Below, piece by piece: positions 42,651 through 54,928 of a stretch of 64,000 nucleotides of DNA. The DNA is from Deltaproteobacteria bacterium. GTDB lineage: Bacteria > Desulfobacterota > WTBG01 > CAIYCZ01 > CAIRTM01. A program made the position numbers and the translations under genes. How positions within the stretch are numbered: position 1 is the stretch's first letter; each line of letters begins with the position of its first letter. The notes under the pieces are model-generated. The model saw nothing but the letters and a program-made list of their open reading frames with translations. It searched no databases and was not told the origin of the DNA. The DNA lies in contig JAJRXD010000013.1 in NCBI GenBank assembly GCA_024276465.1, forward strand, positions 47,390 to 111,389, in the 5' to 3' direction.

Positions 42651-43399
42651 ATTATGACTTTTTCCAGGCGTTGCTTACGCTTTTCCCAGTCCGGCAGAAT
42701 TCGTCCGAGAAGCTGGTAAAATTTCCTGTCATGTTGCGGACAGATCAGATGACACAGTTCATGTATAATCACATAATCAATACAGTGGATAGGTGCCTTG
42801 ACAAGTTCTGTGTTCAACATGATGTTGCCATTGCCAGAACAGCTGCCCCATCGTTTTTTTATACGGCGATAGCGCACTTGCGGTTCTGTTACGCCCATCC
42901 TCACAAAGGCTTGCAGGTAATAAGCAAGTCTTCTTGTAAGCAAATCCCTGGCATGTTCCGAATACCAATCAAGCATAAGTGCTTTGGCTTTTTCCCTTTT
43001 GTTTGGATCTGGTAACTGCATTTCAAAAAAACGACCGAGCAATCGTACTCGTGGTGTATCGCCACGTCGTGTTCTCAAACGATACTGCCGCCCCAAATAA
43101 TAATGAGTTTCACCGGAGACAAATTTTCGTTCCATAGGAAAGGACTGAAACTGCTCAAAAAAATCAAGTTGCCGGGCTATCCATGATGCCCGCTTTACAA
43201 GTCGCTGCTGAACAACTTCCAGCTCATATCCTGCAGGTGTTTTTGCCACGATTTTAAGGTCTGGGTACACTGTAATGGAAAGACGTTTGCGCTCGCTCCA
43301 CATAACATCCACAGCGAACTGTCGTCGTCCAAAACTTATTTTTATTTTTTCGCTTTTCACGCCAGTCACGGTTTCCTGATCCTGGCAATATCCAGACAC
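42647..43399 (-). CDS. DUF45/YgjP-like (WLM/M48-like) zinc metallohydrolase
   Basis: 250 aa. HELCHL HExxH motif. The family commonly trails hsdR in Type I RM loci. Confidence 0.75.
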   Translation of the reverse strand: MSGYCQDQETVTGVKSEKIKISFGRRQFAVDVMWSERKRLSITVYPDLKIVAKTPAGYELEVVQQRLVKRASWIARQLDFFEQFQSFPMERKFVSGETHYYLGRQYRLRTRRGDTPRVRLLGRFFEMQLPDPNKREKAKALMLDWYSEHARDLLTRRLAYYLQAFVRMGVTEPQVRYRRIKKRWGSCSGNGNIMLNTELVKAPIHCIDYVIIHELCHLICPQHDRKFYQLLGRILPDWEKRKQRLEKVII

Positions 43400-46300
43400 T
43401 GTTCCATTATCGCATCCATCTCCTCAAACGTAATTTCAATACCTTCTCTGTCTTTAAAGTCAAAAAGAAGGTCTTCGATATCATTCCTCATACGATTTTG
43501 TGTGTCCATATCACTATCCCAGCTAACAATACGGTTTCGTTCAATGACTTCATCTATAGCCAGCGCAACATCGGCAAGAACATCTTCGAAATCATCCCGG
43601 CCGTTATCCAATCGCCCGATGATTTCCTTAAGAGAACCAAAATAGGCCTTGGCAACATCATGGCTCTTGAGTTTTTCCGGAATTCGGTCTCCAGTACGGT
43701 TACGCACTGCGTTCATAATCTCCGTAACTTTCCTGAGATACTCATTTGCCTTAATCCGTTCTTCCCTGAAAGCCGCGATAGCAGCAATCAGGAGCTCTGA
43801 GAACCGTTTATAGAAAGCCGGGTCTTCCTGCATGCGCTCATGGATTGTTCGGGCTGTACGATGGGCAATTGTGTCGGCTTTGGCGGCCGCGTTCGGCAGT
43901 TTTTCCACTTCCCGGGCAAAGGCATCGGCATCAAAGATGTTAACCAGAGAGGTGATTTTTTCCACCTCACCGGTGCCGACATGCGTATCCAGCAGTTTTT
44001 GAATCTTAGGTTCGTATTCGCTAAAATCCACGACTTCTGCATATCGTTTCCTCACCGCCGTGCGCAGCTTGGAGAAAAACTTCAGGTCCGCCCGATAACG
44101 ACTCAACTTTTCCGGATCGGTTTCCTCTAAAAACTTTACGCTGGACAGTGCAATACCAAGCGTTTTTGAAAATGCCGATAAACGTTCATAAAACCTGGTC
44201 CGCAGCCCCACATCCGCCAGCGCCAGCTCGTAGGCTTCCTCATCCTGCTTGTTCTTGACCTCTTTAAATGTATCCCACAGGAGAGAATGCTTCTGAGGAA
44301 GTGTTGATGTCTCCACACTCACATCGGTGAGAATATTCTCAATATCTCCGGAATCAAACTCTGATAACGTGCTGTAAAGGTCCAGGGCGTGGTCGAGGTT
44401 TTCCAGGACCCCGCGATAATCGATGATATATCCGAAATCTTTGCTATTGCTCAGCCGGTTGACCCTGGCGATGGCTTGCAGCAGGGTATGGTCCTTCAGT
44501 TTCCGCATCAGGTAAAGAATGGTATTTCGGGGCGCGTCGAATCCAACGAGCAACTTATCTACCACAATAATTATTTCGGGATGTTCCGCGTTTTTGAAGG
44601 CATTGATAATCTGTTTGTTGTACTCCCGTTCGCTGCCGTATTTGCTGATGATCGTTTTCCAGAACCGATGCACGGCCAGTTTGTTTTCTTCATACAGGTC
44701 CTCTTCACCTTCCCGTTCGTCGGGACCCGAGATCAGCACTTCGCATGACACCATGGCGAATTCATCCAGATATTTTTTGTAGAGTAACGCGGCAGCCTTG
44801 TCCTGCGTCACCATTTGCCCCTTAAACCCTGTTCCTTGCCAGTTGTCACGAAAGTGCTCGCTGATATCCCAGGCAATGGCCATAACCTTCTGCGCCGCCT
44901 TGTTCAATTGGTCAGTGGTTGCGAATTTTTTTTTCAGGTCTGCAGATTGTTCATCGCTCAAGTTGGTTGTGATTCGCTCGAACCAGGCGTCGATACCATT
45001 GGAGTCTACGTGCTGTTCAACGTGTCTGCCCTCATATAAAAGGGGAACAACCGCCTTATCAGCCACCGCCCGGTCGATGGTATAGGTATCAATCAGGCCG
45101 CCGAATTTTTCGACCGTGTTTTTGTCCTTCTTCATCACCGGCGTCCCGGTGAAACCGATGTAACAGGCGTTCGGTAATACCCGACGCATTTTGGCATGGC
45201 GCGGGCCGTACTGGCCGCGATGGCCTTCATCTATCAGAACAAAAATATCGGGATCATCGTTGCGCACAACGTGCCGACCGACAGCCGCCTCAAATTTGTC
45301 GATGATCGTTGTTACAATGCGCTGTTTATTGCCTTTCAGCATCTGCGACAGGTGCTTGCCGGTTCCGGCCTGCTCAACTTCCTTGCCGCAATGGTGGAAG
45401 GTTCTGTATATCTGGTCATCAAGATCAACCCGGTCGGTCACCAGGACGATTTTGTAGTCGGTAATTTCAGGGCACAGGGCGATGGACTTGGCAAGCAGTA
45501 CCATGGTCAAGGACTTGCCGCTGCCCTGGGTGTGCCAGACCACGCCGCCCCGCCGTCTGCCGTTTTGTTCGCGATTCCCGATGCGGTCCATAATTTTTCT
45601 GACGGCAAAGTATTGCTGATACCGTGCGATCTTCTTGACACCGGCATCAAACAGAATAAAGCGATAGGTCAATTCAAGGAGCCGTTCAGGACGGCACAAT
45701 GCATAAAGTGCTCGATCCTGCTCAGTCACCTGTCTTTTAAGAGTGCCGTAAGCGGTCGGTTTTTCCCGTACCATCCACTCATTGTCAGTGAACAGCCTGT
45801 CCACCTGATTTTCAGTCAGGGGAATGTTTACCAATTCTTTCAAGGGCGGATGACCATCCGCCCCTACAGTTTCGATATTGTCTTCCCGCCATGCAGACCA
45901 GAATTTCAAAGGCGTTCCCGTAGTTGCGTATTTGGCCTCATTCTTTGACAACACCAAAAGGAGCTGAGAATAGATAAACAGATGAGGAATTTCGTCATGT
46001 TTCTGGTTGCGGATCTGCTGGGATATGGCCTGCGCAAGCGACTCCTTGATGTGCGGCGATTTACATTCGATCACGCAAAAGGGAATACCATTTACAAAGA
46101 GTACTATATCCGGTCTGCGGGTCTGGTGACTGCCGGCCCGCTCAACGGTAAATTCTTCCGTGACATGAAAGATGTTGTTGTCCGGATGTTCCCAGTCGAT
46201 ATAATGCAGGGTAAAACTCTTGATATCGCCGTCCACTGACTGCTGCAGGCTTTTGCCCAGGCACAACAGGTCATAAATTTTCTCATTGGTACGCACCAGT

Positions 46301-46563
46301 CCGTCAAAGGGAATCTCTTTGAGTGCCTGCAGGGCGCTCAGGATATTGCCCTCGGTAAACGGCAGCTCTCTTCCCTTGAATCTGACCCGGTTATTTTTCC
46401 GCAGCCAGTCAGCAAGAATTCCCTCCAGGAGTACGCCCCCCAGCCTGCCGCTCCGAAGGTCAAGAGCCTCTTTTGGTGTCAGATATTGCCATCCCAGATT
46501 CTGAAGCAGGTGCAGGGCAGGGAGCTGAGAAATGGCGTCTTCGTTTAAAACTGGCGCCCTCAT
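43366..46563 (-). CDS. hsdR: Type I restriction enzyme R subunit
   Basis: 1065 aa. HsdR N-terminal nuclease region and DEAD/DEAH helicase motifs (GSGKS, DEGHRGQ). Confidence 0.95.
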   Translation of the reverse strand: MRAPVLNEDAISQLPALHLLQNLGWQYLTPKEALDLRSGRLGGVLLEGILADWLRKNNRVRFKGRELPFTEGNILSALQALKEIPFDGLVRTNEKIYDLLCLGKSLQQSVDGDIKSFTLHYIDWEHPDNNIFHVTEEFTVERAGSHQTRRPDIVLFVNGIPFCVIECKSPHIKESLAQAISQQIRNQKHDEIPHLFIYSQLLLVLSKNEAKYATTGTPLKFWSAWREDNIETVGADGHPPLKELVNIPLTENQVDRLFTDNEWMVREKPTAYGTLKRQVTEQDRALYALCRPERLLELTYRFILFDAGVKKIARYQQYFAVRKIMDRIGNREQNGRRRGGVVWHTQGSGKSLTMVLLAKSIALCPEITDYKIVLVTDRVDLDDQIYRTFHHCGKEVEQAGTGKHLSQMLKGNKQRIVTTIIDKFEAAVGRHVVRNDDPDIFVLIDEGHRGQYGPRHAKMRRVLPNACYIGFTGTPVMKKDKNTVEKFGGLIDTYTIDRAVADKAVVPLLYEGRHVEQHVDSNGIDAWFERITTNLSDEQSADLKKKFATTDQLNKAAQKVMAIAWDISEHFRDNWQGTGFKGQMVTQDKAAALLYKKYLDEFAMVSCEVLISGPDEREGEEDLYEENKLAVHRFWKTIISKYGSEREYNKQIINAFKNAEHPEIIIVVDKLLVGFDAPRNTILYLMRKLKDHTLLQAIARVNRLSNSKDFGYIIDYRGVLENLDHALDLYSTLSEFDSGDIENILTDVSVETSTLPQKHSLLWDTFKEVKNKQDEEAYELALADVGLRTRFYERLSAFSKTLGIALSSVKFLEETDPEKLSRYRADLKFFSKLRTAVRKRYAEVVDFSEYEPKIQKLLDTHVGTGEVEKITSLVNIFDADAFAREVEKLPNAAAKADTIAHRTARTIHERMQEDPAFYKRFSELLIAAIAAFREERIKANEYLRKVTEIMNAVRNRTGDRIPEKLKSHDVAKAYFGSLKEIIGRLDNGRDDFEDVLADVALAIDEVIERNRIVSWDSDMDTQNRMRNDIEDLLFDFKDREGIEITFEEMDAIMEQCLDIARIRKP

Positions 46564-48095
46564 CGGTTTTTCTCCTGTTCAAGTAGTTGCTGTCCCTTTA
46601 TCGTCAGCCGATATTTCTGCTTGCTGCTTGTTGGCTTGTCAGGAATGGTCATTTCAATAAACGCAGCCTCGATAAGATGATTCAATACTTGCTGCCTGAA
46701 CTTGGTGCGATCTTTTCGTCCTGTAATGGACATAAGCTCAAGCAATGTACTTTCCCCCTTGCATTTATTGAGTATTTCAACTTGGTGCCGACTTAGTGCC
46801 GACTTAGTGCCAACTTGTGTATCCTGCAGCCATTTCAGAGATTCAGCAAAAACAGGATGGATAAATAATTCTACCAGAAAATAAGTCCTTTCGTCATCCG
46901 TATGGAATATAGGCGCAGGAGAACCATTGTCCCTAATCGCCCTTAACATTTTTGGAATGCCGGTTCCTCGCCCCTCGGTCATTTCAAGCTCCTTGAGGAA
47001 CTCCCCGACCCGGCGGTTACGGTATCGACGGGACAGAAAACGGAATTCTTGCATGTCTTTTTTCCGGATGGATCGGTCAGGCCCAGGAAAGCTGGAAATG
47101 GTTATACGATCCGGCAAAATGCGCACCTCCATAGGCTCCCTGATTTCATAAGAACGGTGATACACAGCGTTACAGAGGGCTTCTTCAATGGCGGCAAACG
47201 GATAGTTGAAAAAACGGTCGGCTTCTGCACGGTCAGGGTGCTTGATGATCTTTTCCTCTATCACCGTCGAGCGGATATGAGCAAGTGCATCCTGCAACAT
47301 AACGTGGAGCGGCCCAGTGAAAATCTTTTCAGTGAAAAAGTCCGCCCCGGGACCTTCAGGAAAATGCACTACATCAATCTGTGTTTGAGGGAAAAATTTG
47401 GAGGGATTGTTGTTAAAGAACATGAGGCCGACATTCCTGGGCCACACTGCTTCGTCAGGCCCGTCAGCAATGTTTATCCGGCGGCAAAGCTGGACAAAAT
47501 TCATTTTTGCCGCTTCGGGAAAAAGATCGCTTTTGACCTGCTTCAGATAGGCACGCATCAGTCCCAGATCCAAATCGTCAAAAATGGCAGCCTGGTTCAT
47601 GCGGTCGTCAAAGGGAACAGTGGCAGCAAGGCTCATTAATTCCACTTCATCCTGATGCCTGGCTCGAACAGTAACTGACCCCTTACGAATATAGTAGGCA
47701 AATTCCCTCTTGCCCTTTGCCAGAGAAACCGGGGCTTTGTAGGGCCTGGTCTGACCTCCTATGGCCCAGAGCACCAGGATGTGTTTTTCGCCAATTTTAC
47801 ATGGAGCTATAATCGGGTGATAATAAGGCACCATCCGGTAGCCAAACTCCACGATTTCTTTCTGGATGGCGTCAAGTTCCCCGGCTGGCATCCCTTGTGG
47901 CGGCAAAACAGGCCGGCCATTATCTTCTTCCACTCCGATGATGATGTATCCACCGCCAAGGTTATGAAAATCATTGGCAAAAGCACACATGGTGTGCAGC
48001 ACCTTTTCCGGGTTCCAGCCGGCCTTGAACTCCAGCCGTTCCCATTCCACGGTCCGGGCGGTGAGAAGGTCGTTTATGTTAATTGGGAGGTTCAT
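46560..48095 (-). CDS. AlbA_2 (Schlafen-like DNA-binding) and HATPase_c_4 domain ATP-binding protein
   Basis: N-terminal AlbA_2-type domain (EFKAGWNPEKVLHTMCAFANDFHNLGGGYIIIGV). Probable start MNLPININ at 48095; the ORF track starts at a GTG at 48131. Confidence 0.65.
   Translation of the reverse strand: MNLPININDLLTARTVEWERLEFKAGWNPEKVLHTMCAFANDFHNLGGGYIIIGVEEDNGRPVLPPQGMPAGELDAIQKEIVEFGYRMVPYYHPIIAPCKIGEKHILVLWAIGGQTRPYKAPVSLAKGKREFAYYIRKGSVTVRARHQDEVELMSLAATVPFDDRMNQAAIFDDLDLGLMRAYLKQVKSDLFPEAAKMNFVQLCRRINIADGPDEAVWPRNVGLMFFNNNPSKFFPQTQIDVVHFPEGPGADFFTEKIFTGPLHVMLQDALAHIRSTVIEEKIIKHPDRAEADRFFNYPFAAIEEALCNAVYHRSYEIREPMEVRILPDRITISSFPGPDRSIRKKDMQEFRFLSRRYRNRRVGEFLKELEMTEGRGTGIPKMLRAIRDNGSPAPIFHTDDERTYFLVELFIHPVFAESLKWLQDTQVGTKSALSRHQVEILNKCKGESTLLELMSITGRKDRTKFRQQVLNHLIEAAFIEMTIPDKPTSSKQKYRLTIKGQQLLEQEKNR
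46785..46817. repeat. 11-bp tandem repeat, 3 copies, inside the AlbA_2 gene
   Basis: gtgccgactta gtgccgactta gtgccaacttg. Confidence 0.6.
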
Positions 48096-48105
48096 ATTTT
48101 CACCT

Positions 48106-48897
48106 TTAATTTCCGGTTTCAGGGCAGACACGCAGGTCTGCCCCTACAACGGCAGGGTTTTCCCGGTCGTGTTCCCATTTGGCCGGATTATCAATGATGT
48201 ATTGGCGAAGGCGGTTTAATTCGTTTTCATTGCGGACAATATGTTCCCAATAATTGCGTTGCCATAATTTGCCGTCAAATCGTGGCCAACCGCATTGTTT
48301 GACACCACGGATATATTCATTGGTTGTTATGGTTTTAAACCATTGAACCACCGCCCGTAGGGGCGCACCTGTGTGTGCGCCCGTTGTTTCGTGTGCGTCC
48401 GGTTCGGGTTCGCCTGGTTCCATGTGTTCGTCCGTTTTGTGGTTGTCCGAATCGTGGTTGTCCCCTATGTGTTCCCGCGGTTTTGTAGGGGCAATCCTGC
48501 GTGATTGCCCATTGTTCCGTGATCGCACATCACTAGGGCAGACACGCAGGTCTGTTTCAGGGCAGACACGCAGGTCTGCCCCTACATTGACAACAACACC
48601 GTGAAAATGATTCGGCATAACAATATATTCATCACATCGAATATCCGGGAATTTGTTTTCTAATTCCTGATACCATTTCTTCACCATCCGTCCCGGATCA
48701 TTCAATACCATTTCACCATCCACAATTTTACCAAACATACATTCCCGATTCTGTGTGCATATTGTCACAAAATATGCCCCTGATTGCGAATAATCATATC
48801 CCCGCAAACGGATAGACCGACGGTTTCGTTCCCGCCGTAGGGGCAACCCCCTGTGGTTGCCCACATCCAATTCTGTATCCGAATCCCGTTTAATCAT
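48106..48897 (-). CDS. REP-associated tyrosine transposase (RAYT, IS200/IS605 TnpA-like HUH enzyme) with REP palindromes inside the ORF
   Basis: HUH motif MPNHFHGVV and Tyr motif LWQRNYWEHIVRNE...YIIDNPAKW. The spacing between the two motifs is about 57 aa longer than canonical because of a REP-containing in-frame insert. Confidence 0.8.
   Translation of the reverse strand: MIKRDSDTELDVGNHRGLPLRRERNRRSIRLRGYDYSQSGAYFVTICTQNRECMFGKIVDGEMVLNDPGRMVKKWYQELENKFPDIRCDEYIVMPNHFHGVVVNVGADLRVCPETDLRVCPSDVRSRNNGQSRRIAPTKPREHIGDNHDSDNHKTDEHMEPGEPEPDAHETTGAHTGAPLRAVVQWFKTITTNEYIRGVKQCGWPRFDGKLWQRNYWEHIVRNENELNRLRQYIIDNPAKWEHDRENPAVVGADLRVCPETGN
48122..48147 (-). repeat. REP element (GTAG-headed palindrome) overlapping the RAYT stop
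   Basis: Minus strand reads gtaggggcagacctgcgtgtctgccc. Confidence 0.75.
48357..48382 (+). repeat. REP element variant inside the RAYT ORF
   Basis: gtaggggcgcacctgtgtgtgcgccc. Confidence 0.7.
48485..48510 (+). repeat. REP element variant inside the RAYT ORF
   Basis: gtaggggcaatcctgcgtgattgccc. Confidence 0.7.
48536..48585 (-). repeat. tandem REP pair: a truncated copy at 48536-48554 and a full copy at 48560-48585
   Basis: gggcagacacgcaggtctg tttca gggcagacacgcaggtctgcccctac. Confidence 0.75.
48837..48862 (+). repeat. REP element variant in the 5' part of the RAYT ORF
   Basis: gtaggggcaaccccctgtggttgccc. Confidence 0.7.
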
Positions 48898-49946
48898 ATT
48901 TCTACCCTGATTTCCCCTGTCAGCAGTTTCTGCATCAGGCCCTTCTTTTGTTCCAATAATTTCTCCTGTTTCTTTTTCAATAATTCAATTTCCCGGTCGC
49001 AGGTGGAAAGAGTCCCTGCTATACGTTTTTGTTCGTCTGTGGTAGGCAAGTGAACCGTGGTCTTCATCACAGCGGATGTTGTTAGACCAAACCGCGTGGC
49101 TCCATTAGCATGTGTCGTGAAATGCTTTCGTGACCGTGCGCTACCCAATTCCTTTGACAGAAAAACGGGGTTGACTTCTACGGAGTTCGGGCGGATGAGT
49201 GCGAGGTGATAACCGCATACAACATTCTCTAATTTCTCTGTGACAACTGCCGGAATGCCTATATCATCGGGTGTCTCTGAATCTTTCGTAATCATGACGT
49301 CACCCTGTCGCAGTAAGAACCTTTCAATCTCGGAAGCCGAAGCCGTTGCTGGCATGAAGTTCAGGTCAACGGTGATATAGTCATTCGCATAGACATCCAT
49401 GTAGTTGCAGAGCCTGACGGGTATTTCATCGGTATGAGTCTTCTTGTCCACGCCGCTGAAGGAAACGTGAGCGATGCTGCCAATGGGCCTCTCTTCCCAC
49501 CCCTCCGGCAGTTCGCCTCTTTTCTCAACCGGTTTGCCAAACTCAGGGAACCGCATCCGGCCGGAGAGCAGTTGCTGCATCAGCCCTTTTTTGAGTAATT
49601 CAGCGAAATCTCGATCTACGAGAGCAGGAACAGCAATGTCATCGGCTGTTTCGGAATCCTTTGTAATGAGGACGTCACCCTTTTGCAGAGAATAGCGTTC
49701 AATCTCTCGTGGCATTGCCGTAGCGGACATGAATGAGATGGCGTCTGAAATATGGGCGTTGTAGTAAACGTCCGTATAATTGCACAGGCGTACTGCCTGC
49801 TCTCCCTTATGTGATTTTTTGTCGACGTTGCTGAAACGTACATCAGCGACATCCTCAAGCCGCACACATTCCCATTCCTCCGGTATCCACCCAACTTTGG
49901 AATCCTTATATCCGAGCCTGTTTTCGTTCCGCTTGCTCATGCGCAT
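48894..49946 (-). CDS. hsdS: Type I restriction-modification specificity subunit with two similar target-recognition domains
   Basis: 350 aa. Duplicated TRD blocks (VRLCNYTDVY...ITKDSETADDIAVPALV and VRLCNYMDVY...ITKDSETPDDIGIPAVV). Conserved coiled-coil spacer regions. Confidence 0.85.
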   Translation of the reverse strand: MRMSKRNENRLGYKDSKVGWIPEEWECVRLEDVADVRFSNVDKKSHKGEQAVRLCNYTDVYYNAHISDAISFMSATAMPREIERYSLQKGDVLITKDSETADDIAVPALVDRDFAELLKKGLMQQLLSGRMRFPEFGKPVEKRGELPEGWEERPIGSIAHVSFSGVDKKTHTDEIPVRLCNYMDVYANDYITVDLNFMPATASASEIERFLLRQGDVMITKDSETPDDIGIPAVVTEKLENVVCGYHLALIRPNSVEVNPVFLSKELGSARSRKHFTTHANGATRFGLTTSAVMKTTVHLPTTDEQKRIAGTLSTCDREIELLKKKQEKLLEQKKGLMQKLLTGEIRVEI

Positions 49947-50698
49947 TTCTCCCGCTTGGCCTGTTCGCGTGCCATCTCATCGAGTTCTTTCTTCAGAGCT
50001 TTTGGGAGAAGGCTCCAGTCAAAATCTTTCATCTCGCTCTCTTTCAGGCTGTAAAGAACATTGGTGGCATCCCTGATGAATCGTTCTTTGGACTGCTGTT
50101 TCAATAAATCAAGCATGGATGCTCCGTGACATCTCCGCAGTATCTTCCCGGAACCGCAGGGACAAACGTGATGCCCCCGATATGTCCCATCGGCCATCAG
50201 TTTTAATAATGACAGCACGATCTGAACATCATCGGTGTTAAACAGGTCTTGATAGTATTCCCGGATACCATTTGCCCCATGAGAGAGTTCACCGAAAGGC
50301 ATTTCGCCATGTTTCTCAAAGTATGCATATCCATACAGGTACTCGACAACCAGCGTTTCCACAAAGGTGACAAGGCGGGGATCGGCCTTGAATCGCCTCC
50401 ATACTTCAACCGGGGCTCCAAGGCACAGAGTCCGATCACCATACTGATGGAAATTTGGTGGGATTCGACCGCCGGTCTCCTGAACCGTGGGTGGAGAATC
50501 CGGGTAGTCACGGGGCAGCATGATCAGAATAGAGAATACGTCCGTGATTGTCACTTTTTGAAACGTCGCAGAGAACGACAGCATCCCCCGAATCACCCAC
50601 CGGCAGGGGGCGTCTTCGTATAGTTTCAGCCCGGAGGAATATTTCCCTGACAATTCCTCGAACTGCTGCCGGATCAGTGCTTCTTTGCCGTTATTCAA
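49937..50698 (-). CDS. E2/UBC-like protein with C-terminal SEC-C-like zinc motif (CBASS Cap2-like, E2-only)
   Basis: HPN-like loop and catalytic Cys (IPPNFHQYGDRTLCLGAP). C-terminal HVCPCGSGKILRRCHG. 4-nt overlap with the nucleotidyltransferase gene. Confidence 0.55.
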   Translation of the reverse strand: MNNGKEALIRQQFEELSGKYSSGLKLYEDAPCRWVIRGMLSFSATFQKVTITDVFSILIMLPRDYPDSPPTVQETGGRIPPNFHQYGDRTLCLGAPVEVWRRFKADPRLVTFVETLVVEYLYGYAYFEKHGEMPFGELSHGANGIREYYQDLFNTDDVQIVLSLLKLMADGTYRGHHVCPCGSGKILRRCHGASMLDLLKQQSKERFIRDATNVLYSLKESEMKDFDWSLLPKALKKELDEMAREQAKREKCA

Positions 50699-51858
50699 GA
50701 TTCACGCCCCCACGGCTTGCTGGGCTTGGTAATACTGATACTTGGGGCTACGGCTGCAACGGCACTTACAGAGCTTGAACGAGTTGGAAAGGCCCTTGAA
50801 TCTGCCTCATTGACAATGCGGTCGCCAAACCGAGGTTTGAGGTTCTCGATCATGTCATCGAGGTCCCCAGCGCGAAGGGCGGCATCCAGATCGACACGAA
50901 CCTGTTGTATCCACTCGCGGAACTTGACTTCCAACTCTGGGTGTTTCCTCCATTTGTCGGCAAAGTTCTCGGGATGATCGGTCACATCAACCGGGTTTGC
51001 AACGAGGGCGTTACCCTGTTCATCCCGTCCAATCAGACCGGGCATCTTGTTGACGATATTCTGCAGCGCATCAAGAAGATCGGCTTCGTTGTTGTATGCA
51101 TGACCGGCAAGTGTCGTAATGATGATTGAAATAGGCCGATTACCCAAGTCGTCTTTAAACATGATGTCCCTGTGCCGCTTGAGAATCTGGATGGATCGTT
51201 GCAGCGGGGTTTTGACCTTGTATTCCGGGACATCCTCAATGCTTGCTCGAAGCGATTCGGCCAGCAACATGCGTTTGGCATCAAACTGCACGCGCGTGCG
51301 CTCCTTGAACCACTCGGCATAGCCGACGGGATTACTCCGTTGCCAATTGTATAGTTCCCGGTCGGTTATAAGAATTGCGCTTTGGGCAAGGTTCGCACCG
51401 ATCTCACGGGCTATTCCGTTGATATCGTCATCGGGAATTGCCGGCAGAATGTCCATGTGGAAACGGGCTGAGTCGGCATATTGCAGTGTCCAGCAGCGTT
51501 TGCCCTCTTTGAGCATCTTGCGATACCGTTCATTTTCCTTCAGGCGGTCCCCGACCATATCCTTAAGTTGCTTCTGGGTGACGTTTTCTTTTCTTAGAGC
51601 CTTCAATTCACAAACGAGGTCGATGTCATATTCGTCCTTATCGTTTACAGGTTTGATCATCGTGCCCAGACGAAATGAACCTTGTGGATAGATTTGGGGA
51701 TCATACTCAGCTATGGGCGAATCATCCTTATTCAGCCAGTCACCAACCGCCTCGTAATGCTTTACAGCCGCTTCGTACTGTGCATCGGAGATATCCAGTG
51801 ATTCCGCCAATTCCTGAAACAACTGCCTGAGTTCATTATGTCGTTCCTGTGTCATCAC
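50695..51858 (-). CDS. cGAS/DncV-like nucleotidyltransferase (CD-NTase)
   Basis: 387 aa. Pol-beta NTase signature QGSFRLGTMIKPVNDKDEYDIDLV (GS...DxD) and a downstream acidic residue (FHMDILP). Flanked by a patatin effector and an E2-like gene. Confidence 0.7.
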   Translation of the reverse strand: MMTQERHNELRQLFQELAESLDISDAQYEAAVKHYEAVGDWLNKDDSPIAEYDPQIYPQGSFRLGTMIKPVNDKDEYDIDLVCELKALRKENVTQKQLKDMVGDRLKENERYRKMLKEGKRCWTLQYADSARFHMDILPAIPDDDINGIAREIGANLAQSAILITDRELYNWQRSNPVGYAEWFKERTRVQFDAKRMLLAESLRASIEDVPEYKVKTPLQRSIQILKRHRDIMFKDDLGNRPISIIITTLAGHAYNNEADLLDALQNIVNKMPGLIGRDEQGNALVANPVDVTDHPENFADKWRKHPELEVKFREWIQQVRVDLDAALRAGDLDDMIENLKPRFGDRIVNEADSRAFPTRSSSVSAVAAVAPSISITKPSKPWGRES

Positions 51859-52823
51859 ATACCTCCGTTGTTGAGGTCCAAAAAAGTCTTGATCATTTCC
51901 GCCTTATGCGAGAAATCCCTATCAGCACGAGACTTCAAATCGCGCAGGTCAGCCGGATCGTCCAAAGGAAGCGCAGAGTCTGAGTCAAAATTGAGTCTTA
52001 AAATCTGCTCTGGTCTCAGGAGAAGACCTGTCATGTTGTTGGCTGTTTCAGATTGAAGATTTAGCAGCATTGAAATGAACTTTCCATGCTGCCAGCGTGT
52101 TGCAAATCCCCAGCCCTGATATCGCTTCCACCATGGCCGCTTCTGTGGATAAAAGCTACGGCTAACTCCTGTGCCGAGGGTAAACACCTTAAGGGAGTCA
52201 AGGTCCTTGCCAAGCCGCTTTTTGGCGTCAATTACTGCAACAAGTGAAGGACTGTTTGCCCACAACCCCCCATCGGCCAGAAGGTACTCACCTACATTTT
52301 GAGGATCGAAATAGGTGGGGGCTGAGCAGGATGCCATAACGGCATCTCGGATAAGAACGTTGCGGTCACGGACAAACCCTTTATCATAGCCCGACTTGAA
52401 CACATGAACACATCCGTTCCCGATGTCAGTTGCCGGAATAATGAGTGGCGTTGTTACTTGCCCAAGTCGGCGGTCAGCAAAAACCTCCTGCAGAATGTCA
52501 CGAAGGTATTGGTTTCTGTATCGACTCCTAATAAAACCAAAGCGTGGCATAAACCGGCGAGGAAATATCTGAGCACCGTGTTCTTCGTAGAATTCCACGA
52601 TGTCACACGCGCGCATTTCGCACGCAAGTCCTGCCGCAACTATTGAACCGGTACTCGTACCTGCAATCAATTGAAAATGATTTCGCAAATCCAAGTCGTA
52701 TTCTTGCTCAATCCGGGCAAGAATATGGGCGGCATAGACGCCACGAAATCCACCACCGTCAACGGAAAGAATACGGAAGGAGTTGTCTGCAGAACTTGAC
52801 AGAACAGGGTTCGATTTGCTCAT
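51855..52823 (-). CDS. capV: patatin-like phospholipase (CapV-like CBASS effector)
   Basis: 322 aa. Oxyanion hole DGGGFRG, nucleophile elbow GTSTG, catalytic dyad Asp in ADGG. Confidence 0.85.
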   Translation of the reverse strand: MSKSNPVLSSSADNSFRILSVDGGGFRGVYAAHILARIEQEYDLDLRNHFQLIAGTSTGSIVAAGLACEMRACDIVEFYEEHGAQIFPRRFMPRFGFIRSRYRNQYLRDILQEVFADRRLGQVTTPLIIPATDIGNGCVHVFKSGYDKGFVRDRNVLIRDAVMASCSAPTYFDPQNVGEYLLADGGLWANSPSLVAVIDAKKRLGKDLDSLKVFTLGTGVSRSFYPQKRPWWKRYQGWGFATRWQHGKFISMLLNLQSETANNMTGLLLRPEQILRLNFDSDSALPLDDPADLRDLKSRADRDFSHKAEMIKTFLDLNNGGM

Positions 52824-54340
52824 AGACCCAGTTCCTTTAAATAACCGCCGAGTTTTTTCTGAGTACTTGCAAGCTCCGTCTCGATCTCTTCAATTTCCTT
52901 TTGAACGGCAGAAATGTCGATGTCCTCTTCTTCCTCAAAGGTATCCACATAGCGGGGGATATTCAGATTGAATTCGGCTTCCTGAATCTCTTCCAGCGTT
53001 GCCAGGTGGGAGTATTTTTCTACTTCCTCGAATTTGCGGAACGTAGAGATGATCTTTTCGATATCTTCATCCCGCAGGCGGTTCTGCTTTTTCTCGTCTT
53101 TAAACTCGCGGCTGGCGTCTATAAAAAGAACATGCTTATCACGTTTGTTCTTTGCCGTTTTCCAGGGTTTCCTGCCCTTGTTGAAAACAAGAATGGCCGC
53201 CGGTATCCCGGTGCCGTAGAAAAGCTGGGCGGGTAGACCAATAACCGCTTCAAGGATATTGTCCTCAATGAACGCCTTCCGGATAACGCCTTCCGCTCCA
53301 CCACGAAACAGAACCCCGTGAGGCACAATGACGCCCACCTTGCCTTCACCCTCCAGGGTAATTTCAACCATGTGGCTGATAAAAGCGTAATCGCCCCGGC
53401 TTTTTGGCGGGACCCCGCGCCAGAAGCGGTTGAACCGGTCGTGACTTGCATTTTCCTGGCCCCACTTATCCAGAGAAAACGGCGGATTGGCAACCACGAC
53501 ATTGAAGCGCATCAGTTCGTCGTTCTCTATCAGCCTGGGGTTGTTGATGGTGTCGCACCATTCAATGCGGGCAGAATCCATTGAATGCAAAAACATGTTC
53601 ATTCGGCACAGGGACCAGGTGGAACCGTTGGACTCCTGGCCGGACAGGGCAAAATTCGGACTCCCGACTTCCTGACCGACTTTGATGAGAAGCGATCCTG
53701 ACCCGCAGGCCGGGTCACAGATACGGTCTCCGTCTTTGGGATTAAGCAATTTGGCAAGCAGCGTGGAAACTTCGGCTGGAGTGTAGAACTCGCCGGCTTT
53801 TTTCCCGGCCCCGGCCGCAAAACGGGAAATCAGGTATTCATACACGTCACCGATTACGTCACGATTCCCAATGCGTGAGGGGCGCAAATCAAGACGCTCA
53901 TCGGCAAAGTCCTCCAGAAGATTCTTCAGGCGGCGGTTGCGCTCCTTGGTCTGACCCAAGGCAGGTTCGCTGTTGAAATCAATATTGCGAAAAACATTTT
54001 CGAGTTTCGACTTGTTGGCATCCTCGATTTTTTCAAGGGCAATATTGATGATCTCACCGATATTGGGCTCGTCGCGTCTGCTGTAGAGGGAATTAAAGTT
54101 TGATTCCGGAGGCACCACAAAGCGTTCCCGGGCCAGTGCTCTTTCCACTCGGGCAGCATCACCATTATATTTTTTCTCGTATTCGGCTCTTTTGTCCTTC
54201 CACAGGTCGCTCATGTACTTGATGAAGAGCATGGTAAGGATGTAATTCTTGTATTCCGACGGATCGACTGCGCCCCTGAAGGTGTCGCAGGCCCGCCAGA
54301 CAACATCATTGATTTCTTTTTGGGAAACGTGAGGACTCAT
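52820..54340 (-). CDS. hsdM: Type I restriction-modification N6-adenine DNA methyltransferase subunit
   Basis: 506 aa. HsdM N-terminal domain. SAM-binding motif DPACGSGS. Catalytic NPPF (VVANPPFS). Confidence 0.95.
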   Translation of the reverse strand: MSPHVSQKEINDVVWRACDTFRGAVDPSEYKNYILTMLFIKYMSDLWKDKRAEYEKKYNGDAARVERALARERFVVPPESNFNSLYSRRDEPNIGEIINIALEKIEDANKSKLENVFRNIDFNSEPALGQTKERNRRLKNLLEDFADERLDLRPSRIGNRDVIGDVYEYLISRFAAGAGKKAGEFYTPAEVSTLLAKLLNPKDGDRICDPACGSGSLLIKVGQEVGSPNFALSGQESNGSTWSLCRMNMFLHSMDSARIEWCDTINNPRLIENDELMRFNVVVANPPFSLDKWGQENASHDRFNRFWRGVPPKSRGDYAFISHMVEITLEGEGKVGVIVPHGVLFRGGAEGVIRKAFIEDNILEAVIGLPAQLFYGTGIPAAILVFNKGRKPWKTAKNKRDKHVLFIDASREFKDEKKQNRLRDEDIEKIISTFRKFEEVEKYSHLATLEEIQEAEFNLNIPRYVDTFEEEEDIDISAVQKEIEEIETELASTQKKLGGYLKELGL

Positions 54341-54343
54341 TTT

Positions 54344-54928
54344 TTATCTCTCCTGTTCTTGAATTGCATTTAAGCAGGCAGCCTTGACAAGACGTGATCG
54401 CGTCTGCGCAAGCCTTTCCAGAAGGAATTGTTCGCGACTGGCAAGCGCTACGCTTAGCACAATTTTTTTCTGAATGGAAACCGGCGGAATCATGACTTGC
54501 AGACGGGAAAGCGTGTGCTTGGAGACAAATGAGATCCCCGTTCCCCGGGCCTGTGCCCTCAGCCAGGCTTGCGCTTTTGACTGATTCAGCCACCAAGCCA
54601 GATATTGTGGAATAATCTCATTCCCTTTCACGCGAAGGATATAGAAAGAACCTGAAGCAAGTGTGTTCTTCAAATCAGCTTCAATATAACCGGCAAAATG
54701 AGCTATTCCACGAGCCTGAAAAAGTATATCGCCTTTGCAAACAGAATAAATTTCAGGCTTTCGCTCAGGGAAAAATGCAGTAAGATTATCCGGCATTAAA
54801 CAATGAAGACAATCGAAATCTTTGGTTTGAATAAGATAATGCGTACCTTTTACATTTTCCTTAATGCTGGCTTTTGCCTGATATCCTGCCTGAATGCTGG
54901 CAACTGTTTTTAAAAAAGTGCTTGTCAT
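54344..54928 (-). CDS. truncated or half-size Type I specificity subunit (single TRD)
   Basis: 194 aa. One TRD plus a conserved C-terminal helical region (IPPVSIQKKIV...LERLAQTRSRL). Lies immediately upstream of hsdM. Confidence 0.6.
   Translation of the reverse strand: MTSTFLKTVASIQAGYQAKASIKENVKGTHYLIQTKDFDCLHCLMPDNLTAFFPERKPEIYSVCKGDILFQARGIAHFAGYIEADLKNTLASGSFYILRVKGNEIIPQYLAWWLNQSKAQAWLRAQARGTGISFVSKHTLSRLQVMIPPVSIQKKIVLSVALASREQFLLERLAQTRSRLVKAACLNAIQEQER

What the first reader, a model, noticed from the sequence alone, without database searches (positions are those of the whole stretch)
49937..50698. The E2-like CBASS protein carries a SEC-C-like CPCGSGK zinc-knuckle motif
After the UBC-like core (HPN-like PPNF, catalytic Cys in TLCLG) the protein ends with HVCPCGSGKILRRCHG. 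This closely resembles the SEC-C metal-binding motif (CPCGSGKKYKxCCG). This domain combination is not one I recognise from characterised Cap2 proteins. The motif might mediate target recognition or ribosome/SecA-like interactions.
Basis: partly seen in the sequence, partly recalled or inferred. Interest (0 to 1): 0.5.

Follow-up and report, generated by a model that had tools for sequence, protein, structure and literature searches.

The report
SecA-type metal knuckle in CBASS E2
The small E2-like regulator of this bacterial anti-phage (CBASS) operon really does carry a conserved SecA-type metal-binding knuckle, which is the norm for this catalogued protein family but has not been studied or discussed in the papers I could search.

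Summary
ORF 49937-50698 (-) encodes a 253-aa protein with a UBC/E2 fold and an invariant Cys92. At residues 179-191 it has C-P-C-x8-C-H, with the ligand spacing and conserved Ser of the SecA metal-binding domain (SEC-C).

The motif is not the protein's end: 61 helical residues follow, and the knuckle lies inside a C-terminal module (residues ~139-253) that AF2 models confidently on its own.

The motif is not a chance match:
- 292 of 325 unique relatives keep CxCx8CH exactly.
- Six relatives lose the His and change the conserved Ser to Cys at the same time.
- The pattern is absent from 216,711 residues of neighbouring ORFs.

The gene is the last of a patatin - CdnG-type CD-NTase - E2 operon (type II-short 'E2-CBASS'), which is nested inside a type I R-M operon.

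The combination is not rare. Seven PADLOC CBASS E2 models contain this region, and RefSeq names some relatives 'SEC-C metal-binding domain-containing protein'. The only characterised E2-only protein, SmE2 (162 aa), lacks the module, and no paper in the searchable library links SEC-C to CBASS.

The most likely role is a structural metal site that stabilises an accessory or regulatory C-terminal module. A SecA-like ribosome or SecB interaction is untested and less likely. I class it as an ordinary member of a known family with an under-described feature.

The parts
49937..50698 (-). Long-form E2-only CBASS regulator (Cap2-like E2), 253 aa. The TTG start overlaps the CD-NTase stop (TTGA).
50294..50698 (-). 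UBC-fold core, residues ~1-135: helix 3-19, four strands 25-74, catalytic loop, helices 96-105 and 109-130. It is followed by the conserved loop PFGELSHG (134-141).
50423..50425 (-). Codon of Cys92, the presumed catalytic cysteine in TLCLG.
   Evidence: Invariant in alignments A1 and A2. It aligns with the active-site CL of UBE2W and other E2s. The codon gca on the + strand reads tgc on the - strand.
50126..50164 (-). SEC-C / SecA-MBD-type metal knuckle C179-P-C181-G-S183-G-K-I-L-R-R-C190-H191 (CxCx8CH).
   Evidence: Pfam SEC-C at E=8.2e-4. PDB SecA MBD hits. 292 of 325 relatives keep it exactly, and a lost His ligand is compensated by Ser-to-Cys. Chance controls.
49940..50284 (-). Family-specific C-terminal module, residues 139-253: two helices, the knuckle, then four helices.
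50695..51858 (-). CdnG-type CD-NTase, 387 aa, the presumed substrate and partner of the E2.
   Evidence: Pfam SMODS and DncV-like NTase. PADLOC cyclase at 1.3e-139. PDB VcCdnG 9WOO at 3.4e-70 and SmCdnG 8HSB at 1e-38.
50698..50718 (-). C-terminal tail K-P-W-G-R-E-S of the CD-NTase. [KR]PW plus 0-5 variable residues is conserved in nearly all of the intact E2-linked cyclases examined.
   Evidence: C-termini of about 55 linked CD-NTases. VcCdnG. Vibrio, Ligilactobacillus, Haliscomenobacter and a Pycsar cyclase.
51855..52823 (-). CapV-like patatin phospholipase effector, 322 aa.
   Evidence: Pfam Patatin at 1.7e-30. NCBIfam CBASS_lipase at 233.7 bits, above the cut-off of 200. PADLOC phospholipase effector at 7.8e-89.
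52820..54340 (-). Context: hsdM of the type I R-M operon that encloses the CBASS genes. Its stop overlaps the patatin start.
   Evidence: Pfam N6_Mtase at 2.3e-105 and HsdM_N. ORF coordinates.
48894..49946 (-). Context: hsdS. Its start overlaps the end of the E2 gene.
   Evidence: Pfam Methylase_S. ORF coordinates. The same nesting occurs in seven related loci.

Best explanation
The ORF encodes the E2-like regulator of a three-gene type II-short ('E2-only') CBASS: CapV-like patatin phospholipase, CdnG-type CD-NTase, then E2. The protein has two parts.

1. A UBC-fold core. It holds the catalytic Cys92, the conserved His84, and a PFGELSHG loop.

2. A family-specific C-terminal helical module (residues ~139-253). 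Its centre is a SecA-MBD-type (SEC-C) knuckle in which Cys179, Cys181, Cys190 and His191 bind one metal ion (Zn, possibly Fe). Ser183 points at the metal, as Ser-889 does in SecA.

I take the knuckle to be mainly a structural metal site that nucleates this module. The module occupies the place of helices alpha3/alpha4 of canonical E2s and of the short C-terminal lid loop of SmE2. It most likely acts as an accessory regulatory or docking surface for the E2-cyclase complex, not as the site that recognises the cyclase tail.

By analogy with SmE2, the core would take the cyclase's C-terminal ...KPW(G)xx tail into its active site, trim it, and form thioester and isopeptide links that control cGAMP synthesis. 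The signal then activates the phospholipase.

What is shown: the fold, the motif, its conservation, the ligand covariation and the operon linkage.

What is inferred: metal binding, the structural role, and the SmE2-like chemistry.
For: Fold and family:
- PADLOC E2 at 1.1e-82.
- AF2 pLDDT 91.8.
- Foldseek top 50 all UBC, UEV or UFC1.

Motif:
- Pfam SEC-C at E=8.2e-4 for the window protein. Relatives score 25.9 and 26.9 bits, above the 20.4 threshold.
- SecA MBD structures 1TM6, 1OZB and 1SX0 are found by the family profile.
- Spacing is exactly CxCx8CH, as defined for SecA-like MBDs (paper 10.1101/613315).

Conservation:
- 119 of 120 close homologues keep the motif.
- 292 of 325 unique members keep it exactly. 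Ser is conserved in 92%.
- All six members that lose the His, and have no nearby His, carry Cys at the Ser position. No member has both or neither.

Integration in a fold:
- Residues 171-200 have pLDDT 93-95 in the full model.
- The C-terminal module alone gives pLDDT 94.9 and pTM 0.85.

Accessory role rather than tail recognition:
- SmE2 works without the module.
- The knuckle-less E2 P0197 still follows a CD-NTase ending ...NPAKPWRQ.

Operon linkage:
- A CD-NTase lies immediately upstream in nearly all of the 61 loci, usually overlapping the E2 start.
- A natural CD-NTase-E2 fusion, P0143, keeps the motif.
Against: - No metal binding was measured. AF2 does not place metals, and I could not read model coordinates to check ligand geometry.
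- The window protein scores 0.8 bits below Pfam's SEC-C gathering score.
- A purely structural role does not explain why the non-ligand residues (G-S-G-K, basic positions) stay so SecA-like.
- The ligand swap may be a single evolutionary event in one clade (L056-L061 and the Vibrio plasmid), so it counts as roughly one observation.
- A few intact relatives (P0136, P0197, P0232) lack the knuckle, so it is dispensable in some lineages.
- The SmE2 chemistry is transferred across only 15% sequence identity. The family's cyclase tail conserves Trp rather than the Gly described for SmCdnG.
Confidence: 0.6

Rival explanations
1. The knuckle works as in SecA, as an exposed basic metal-binding peptide module. 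It would recruit the E2-cyclase complex to a cellular partner (ribosome, SecB-like chaperone or anionic membrane), tying CBASS priming to translation or to the membrane where the phospholipase acts.
For: 10 of 16 residues are identical to the E. coli SecA MBD (alignment). The basic positions after G-S-G are kept as K/R. The SecA MBD is reported to bind SecB and ribosomes, and SecA-like MBDs occur in other ribosome-associated proteins (10.1101/613315). The effector in this operon acts on membranes.
Against: The motif is internal and flanked by helices in a confidently folded module, not at the end of a flexible tail. SecA's conserved aromatic residue (Tyr-893) is Leu/Ile/Val in 88% of members. 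The family occurs in Nitrospirota, Desulfobacterota, Chloroflexota, Bacillota, Planctomycetota and Acidobacteriota, where SecB is generally absent (my own knowledge). The same E2 type is combined with non-membrane effectors such as SAVED proteins.
Confidence: 0.15
2. The knuckle is a metal- or redox-sensitive switch. Oxidation of the thiolates, or exchange or loss of Fe/Zn during phage infection or stress, would unfold the C-terminal module and change E2 activity, releasing or activating the cyclase.
For: SecA-like MBDs were reported to bind iron preferentially in vivo, with the conserved Ser needed for that preference (10.1101/613315). That Ser is 92% conserved here. YchJ, another protein with SEC-C motifs, was reported as a ROS-sensing regulator, though through a different cysteine (PMC13377102). 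For SmE2 a pH-dependent bond conversion is described as the trigger, so environmental sensing by E2-CBASS has a precedent.
Against: No direct evidence. Cys3His sites are most often purely structural. One clade replaces Ser and His with a four-Cys site, which does not fit a conserved Fe-specific geometry.
Confidence: 0.15
3. The Cys/His pattern is a chance resemblance with no metal site, or the ORF is not a real gene.
For: The Pfam score is just below the gathering threshold, and the SEC-C model is only 19 positions long.
Against: Conserved in 292 of 325 relatives with compensated ligand changes. 0 hits in 216,711 control residues and 11 of 200,000 shuffles. 2188 cluster representatives match the core profile. 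The operon position is conserved.
Confidence: 0.02

Closest known systems
SmE2, the E2-only regulator of the Serratia marcescens E2-CBASS (PDB 8HSB chain B; Yan et al. 2024; mLife 2026, PMC12948482)
   Different: [quoted passage not shown] The window protein is 253 aa, with about 115 extra residues forming a helical module with a metal knuckle. Sequence identity is about 15%, and profile searches do not connect the two. The cyclase tail here conserves ...[KR]PW rather than a terminal Gly. The effector is a patatin lipase, not 2TM-SAVED.
SecA C-terminal metal-binding domain and the SecA-like MBDs of YecA and YchJ (Pfam SEC-C PF02810; PDB 1TM6, 1SX0, 1OZB, 9L6B)
   Same: CxCx8CH ligand pattern, C-P-C-G-S-G-K core, conserved Ser, basic residues before the last Cys. 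10 of 16 residues are identical to E. coli SecA.
   Different: Internal rather than terminal. Embedded in a folded helical module rather than on a flexible linker. The conserved aromatic residue is replaced by Leu/Ile/Val. The host protein is an E2, not a translocation factor. One clade uses a four-Cys variant (CxCxCx6C).
Cap2 (E1-E2 fusion) of full type II CBASS (PDB 7TO3)
   Different: There is no E1 domain and no Cap3/JAB gene in this operon. I did not check Cap2 itself for such a motif, and none of the papers I read report one.
Other SEC-C-containing defence proteins, e.g. Rugutis from lactococcal plasmids (PMC11381338)
   Same: A SEC-C motif attached to an anti-phage protein.
   Different: In Rugutis the motif is N-terminal on an unrelated fold. 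There is no E2 or cyclase context.

Membership tests
SEC-C / SecA-like metal-binding domain (PF02810) | Ligand pattern CxCx8C[H/C] | tested here: met
   C179-P-C181-(GSGKILRR)-C190-H191. 292 of 325 relatives have the same spacing. The definition is taken from 10.1101/613315.
SEC-C / SecA-like metal-binding domain (PF02810) | Score at or above Pfam's gathering threshold (20.4 bits) | tested here: inconclusive
   The window protein scores 19.6 bits, E=8.2e-4. Relatives L062 and L063 score 25.9 and 26.9 bits. 16 of 25 aligned members match at E<=0.01.
SEC-C / SecA-like metal-binding domain (PF02810) | Nearly invariant Ser two residues after the second Cys (SecA Ser-889) | tested here: met
   Ser183. 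Ser is present in 268 of 292 members. It is replaced by Cys exactly where the His ligand is lost.
SEC-C / SecA-like metal-binding domain (PF02810) | Conserved aromatic residue (SecA Tyr-893) | tested here: not met
   The window has Leu187. Across the family the position is L 194, I 49, V 15, F 16 of 292.
SEC-C / SecA-like metal-binding domain (PF02810) | Terminal position on a flexible tail, as in SecA, YecA and YchJ | tested here: not met
   The motif is internal (residues 179-191 of 253) and sits between helices in a module with pLDDT 93-97.
SEC-C / SecA-like metal-binding domain (PF02810) | Binds one Zn or Fe ion; binds SecB or ribosomes | not testable with these tools
   Needs metal analysis and binding assays. 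Ligand covariation is indirect support for metal binding only.
E2-only (type II-short) CBASS E2 | UBC/E2 fold | tested here: met
E2-only (type II-short) CBASS E2 | Conserved active-site Cys after the fourth strand | tested here: met
   Cys92 is invariant and aligns with the catalytic CL of UBE2W and Ubc family members.
E2-only (type II-short) CBASS E2 | Canonical HPN motif of eukaryotic E2s | tested here: not met
   N82-F83-H84 sits at the HPN position. Only His84 is conserved. Bacterial CBASS E2s are reported to diverge here as well.
E2-only (type II-short) CBASS E2 | Encoded next to a CD-NTase and an effector, without E1 or JAB genes | tested here: met
   The operon is patatin - CD-NTase - E2 with 4-nt overlaps. 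The flanking genes are hsdM and hsdS. A CD-NTase is adjacent in nearly all 61 loci.
E2-only (type II-short) CBASS E2 | Match to curated CBASS E2 models | tested here: met
   PADLOC PDLC00871 at 1.1e-82, plus five further E2 models below 1e-33.
E2-only (type II-short) CBASS E2 | Conserved Gly at the cyclase C-terminus used for conjugation (SmCdnG G406) | tested here: inconclusive
   The window cyclase ends ...KPWGRES, so a Gly is present. Across the family only [KR]PW is conserved, and Gly follows Trp in about half of the sequences.
E2-only (type II-short) CBASS E2 | Covalent thioester or isopeptide linkage to the cyclase and trimming of its tail | not testable with these tools
   Biochemistry is required. 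Here it is inferred only from SmE2.
Full type II CBASS (Cap2 E1-E2 plus Cap3 JAB) | E1 adenylation domain fused to the E2, and a JAB deconjugase gene | tested here: not met
   The 253-aa protein has no E1 region, and no JAB ORF lies in the operon.

The most novel reading that the evidence does not exclude
The SEC-C knuckle and its helical module are a conserved sensor or adaptor shared by E2-regulated nucleotide-signalling defences, both CBASS and an E2-linked Pycsar. On this reading the metal site (Fe/Zn, redox) or a ribosome or other partner contact gates when the E2 releases or activates the cyclase. That would be the missing infection-sensing input of E2-CBASS.
Probability: 0.15. Interest if true: 0.7.

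Novelty: new member of a known kind. Interest (0 to 1): 0.38.

Why it matters
How CBASS cyclases are held in check and released on infection is still open for the E2-only systems. The only mechanistic work uses the short SmE2. The data here show that most catalogued E2-only regulators are a longer form, with a conserved metal-binding knuckle inside an extra domain that has no structural relative. This includes the probable partner of the characterised VcCdnG.

The feature gives clear, cheap experiments: metal analysis, four point mutants, and deletion of the module. It may mark a regulatory input. It also explains why genome pipelines label these E2s only as 'SEC-C metal-binding domain-containing protein' and miss the E2 fold.

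Tried and rejected
- NCBIfam has no model for the E2.
- Pfam recognises no E2 family in it beyond sub-threshold UQ_con and Prok-E2_B hits.
- The afdb50 library was unavailable.
- Model coordinates are not exposed, so I could not measure ligand geometry or the position of the knuckle relative to Cys92. For the same reason I did not attempt a fused cyclase-E2 prediction, since no interface information would be returned.
- The exact look-up of the window protein's contig failed, so the source organism is unknown. The closest relatives are Nitrospirota and Desulfobacterota MAGs.
- Literature searches for SEC-C together with CBASS, Cap2, CD-NTase or SMODS found only an unrelated lactococcal protein.
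- I considered that the knuckle recognises the cyclase's KPW tail. I lowered this because a knuckle-less E2 still pairs with a KPW-tailed cyclase. This is a single example.
Full report
**1. What is at the coordinates**

The finding's coordinates are exactly one ORF: window 49937-50698, minus strand, 253 aa. Its TTG start overlaps the stop codon of the upstream gene in the sequence TTGA.

The string HVCPCGSGKILRRCHG is residues 177-192 (window 50123-50170, minus strand). It is not the end of the protein. Sixty-one further residues follow.

TLCLG contains Cys92 (codon 50423-50425).

**2. Gene context**

All genes from 43366 to 54928 are on the minus strand, and many overlap their neighbours by a few bases. 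Pfam, PADLOC and NCBIfam identify them as follows.

| Coordinates | Gene | Key evidence |
|---|---|---|
| 54344-54928 | half-size hsdS | Pfam Methylase_S |
| 52820-54340 | hsdM | Pfam N6_Mtase 2.3e-105 |
| 51855-52823 | patatin phospholipase | NCBIfam 'CBASS cGAMP-activated phospholipase', 233.7 bits, cut-off 200 |
| 50695-51858 | CD-NTase | PADLOC cyclase 1.3e-139; Pfam SMODS and DncV-like |
| 49937-50698 | the ORF in question | PADLOC 'E2' PDLC00871, 1.1e-82, residues 6-238 |
| 48894-49946 | hsdS | Pfam Methylase_S |
| 48106-48897 | IS200/RAYT-like ORF | weak Pfam Y1_Tnp |
| 46560-48131 | AlbA_2/HATPase_c_4 protein | Pfam |
| 43366-46563 | large ORF I call hsdR | not run through Pfam; it matches ORFs at the hsdR position in related loci |

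There is no E1 domain and no JAB gene. This is therefore an E2-only (type II-short) CBASS, nested inside a type I restriction-modification operon.

The cyclase is of the CdnG type. Its best solved relatives are VcCdnG 9WOO (E=3.4e-70), SmCdnG 8HSB (1e-38) and BdCdnG 7LJN (1e-21).

**3. Is it an E2?**

An AlphaFold2 model built on 25 homologues has mean pLDDT 91.8 and pTM 0.77. Its N-terminal half has the UBC layout: one helix, four strands, a loop carrying Cys92, then helices.

- Foldseek against the PDB returns only UBC, UEV and UFC1 structures in the top 50.
- Cys92 and Leu93 are invariant. They align with the active-site Cys-Leu of UBE2W and other E2s.

In the UBE2W alignment, H-P-H falls on N82-F83-H84. 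Only His84 and the preceding R-I-P are conserved.

A second conserved element is the loop P134-F-G-E-L-S-H140-G, which lies after the long helix.

**4. Is the Cys cluster a SEC-C motif, and is it more than chance?**

Evidence from models and solved structures:

- Pfam SEC-C matches residues 179-192 at E=8.2e-4 and 19.6 bits. This is 0.8 bits below the gathering score.
- 16 of 25 aligned homologues match at E<=0.01, the best at 4.6e-6.
- Two plasmid-borne relatives score 25.9 and 26.9 bits, above threshold.
- A profile of the family, or of its C-terminal part alone, finds the SecA zinc-domain structures 1TM6 (6e-4), 1OZB (9e-4) and 1SX0 (2e-3). It also finds YchJ-C 9L6B and the 'SEC-C motif' protein 2JQ5 more weakly.
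- The alignment to E. coli SecA is VCPCGSGKILRRCHGA against PCPCGSGKKYKQCHGR, with 10 of 16 residues identical.

[quoted passage not shown] The window protein has the exact spacing and the Ser (Ser183). It has Leu187 at the aromatic position.

Chance controls:

- The pattern occurs 0 times in 216,711 residues of non-E2 ORFs from 61 related loci.
- It occurs once in the window's long reading frames, in this ORF.
- It appears in 11 of 200,000 composition-preserving shuffles of the protein.

**5. Conservation**

- Of the 120 homologues listed by the first search (100% down to 40% identity), 119 carry CxC...CH. The exception is a frameshifted fragment.
- A genome scan gave 61 loci in many phyla: Nitrospirota, Desulfobacterota, Chloroflexota, Paenibacillus, Planctomycetota, Acidobacteriota, Verrucomicrobiota, Gemmatimonadota and others.
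- To avoid circularity I built a profile from the core only (residues 1-170) and searched 1.84 billion cluster representatives. It gave 2188 hits at E<=1e-3. Of the best 150, 134 have the motif downstream of the matched region, and most of the others are truncated.

Pooled over 325 unique sequences:

| Class | Count |
|---|---|
| Exact CxCx8CH | 292 |
| His displaced by one or two residues | 6 |
| His lost and Ser position changed to Cys (CPCGCG...C) | 6 |
| Shortened spacing (P0166) | 1 |
| Fragments or frameshifts | about 16 |
| Intact proteins that really lack the motif (P0136, P0197, P0232, perhaps P0217) | about 4 |

No sequence has both the extra Cys and the His, and none has neither.

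The extra Cys sits at the position of SecA Ser-889, whose side chain points at the metal. This swap is therefore what a four-ligand metal site with SecA-like geometry predicts. It may, however, be a single event inherited by one clade.

Within the motif, Ser is kept in 92% of members. Pro between the first two Cys is kept in 91%. The aromatic position is aliphatic in 88%.

**6. The C-terminal module**

After the PFGELSHG loop come two helices (141-152, 158-170), the knuckle, and four more helices running to residue 252. Confidence is high throughout.

Modelled alone, residues 139-253 give pLDDT 94.9 and pTM 0.85. AF2 thus treats it as a compact unit that it models confidently without the core.

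SmE2 is the only characterised E2-only regulator. It is 162 aa and ends in a loop (150-160, with His152 and Lys159) that covers the active site where human E2s have helices alpha3 and alpha4. The window protein is therefore a long form, with roughly 100 additional residues.

**7. How common and how known is it?**

The fragment of residues 165-253 alone matches seven PADLOC CBASS E2 profiles at their C-terminal ends (E from 2e-18 to 5e-3). The region is thus already part of the catalogued CBASS E2 families.

NCBI names one close homologue 'SEC-C domain-containing protein' (RJQ65153.1). RefSeq names three plasmid-borne relatives 'SEC-C metal-binding domain-containing protein'. Pfam does not recognise the E2 part, which explains these names.

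The two SmE2 papers I read do not mention zinc or SEC-C. No paper in the searchable library combines SEC-C with CBASS, Cap2, CD-NTase or SMODS, apart from an unrelated lactococcal protein. The library covers open-access papers only.

**8. What it most likely does**

Shown:

- An E2 fold with an invariant Cys.
- Strict adjacency to a CdnG-type cyclase. The cyclase is immediately upstream in nearly all loci, usually overlapping, and one natural fusion (P0143) keeps the motif.
- A conserved four-ligand cluster inside a confidently folded module.

Inferred:

- The cluster binds Zn, or Fe as reported for SecA-like MBDs.
- It staples the module together.
- The module is an accessory surface that regulates or docks the E2-cyclase complex.
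- The core carries out SmE2-like trimming and conjugation of the cyclase tail.

The knuckle is probably not what recognises the tail, for two reasons. SmE2 acts without it. The knuckle-less E2 P0197 still follows a cyclase ending ...NPAKPWRQ.

Two rivals remain open.

- A SecA-like partner interaction (ribosome, chaperone or membrane). It is disfavoured by the internal position, the missing aromatic residue and the taxonomic spread.
- A metal or redox switch. It is suggested by the conserved Ser and the reported iron preference of these domains, but there is no direct support.

**9. Verdict**

The interpretation as an E2 with a SEC-C-type knuckle is supported.

The protein is an ordinary member of a known, catalogued family. 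It is not a new domain combination. The motif and its module have nevertheless not been examined experimentally or discussed, and they are absent from the one characterised representative.

Interest is moderate.

Noticed in passing
window 48894-54928 (minus strand); L001, L003, L005, L008, L019, L024, L028: The three CBASS genes sit inside a type I R-M operon, between hsdM and hsdS, with overlapping start and stop codons. A half-size hsdS lies upstream of hsdM. The same nested order (half-hsdS, hsdM, patatin, cyclase, E2, hsdS, hsdR) recurs in at least seven loci from different phyla, with E2 identity down to about 40%. It is therefore a conserved composite cassette rather than a one-off insertion.
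   Followed up: partly
window 50698-50718 (minus strand); CD-NTase C-termini in L001-L061, L063, L064, L066, L067: Nearly all of the intact E2-linked cyclases examined end in a conserved ...I-x-I-x-x-P-x-[KR]-P-W followed by 0-5 variable residues. Gly follows the Trp in only about half. The literature on SmCdnG describes a conserved terminal Gly as the conjugation site. Here the invariant residue is Trp, so the cleavage or attachment point in this clade is unclear.
   Followed up: partly
L062 2530-4651 (Chryseobacterium sp. plasmid pA2BH1, NZ_MN657149.1): A homologous E2 with a SEC-C knuckle (CFCGSGKKLKYCH, Pfam 25.9 bits) overlaps the end of a Pycsar cyclase (PADLOC PycC 2.3e-116). The cyclase follows a PycTM effector gene and ends ...NRPWLKRS, the same tail as the CdnG cyclases. 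This looks like an E2-regulated Pycsar system. I found no paper describing one, though my search was limited.
   Followed up: partly
L066 1025-4064 (Vibrio gigantis LMG 22741 plasmid p1, NZ_AP025494.1): The operon is SAVED effector, CdnG, then a 233-aa E2. The visible cyclase tail (...AVTAKPTFAIQSSDPKPW) is the same as that of the crystallised VcCdnG (9WOO). The E2 carries the four-Cys variant CPCGCGDRLGSC. The published VcCdnG-Cap5 work does not mention an E2, so that characterised system probably has an unstudied long-form E2 partner.
   Followed up: partly
window 48106-48897 (minus strand) and 48116-48586, 48357-48863: The ORF between hsdS and the AlbA_2 gene has only a weak IS200/Y1-transposase match. 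It contains several copies of GC-rich hairpin repeats (GGGCAGACACGCAGGTCTGCCCCTACA and GTAGGGGCA...TGCCC). Translated, these give the odd repeated peptide ADLRVCPE. This looks like a RAYT-type gene riddled with REP-like elements.
   Followed up: partly
window 46560-48131 (minus strand): A 523-aa protein with Schlafen/AlbA_2, HATPase_c_4 and Fic-like C-terminal domains is inserted between hsdS and hsdR. It may be a further defence-associated gene within the same R-M operon.
   Followed up: no
P0143 (616 aa, NCBI/ENA contig of 413 kb): A natural single-chain fusion of a CdnG-type cyclase and the long-form E2. The ...TTTQPW tail is followed by a short linker and an E2 that keeps CPCDSGLKLRKCH. 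It would be useful for structural work on the cyclase-E2 arrangement.
   Followed up: no
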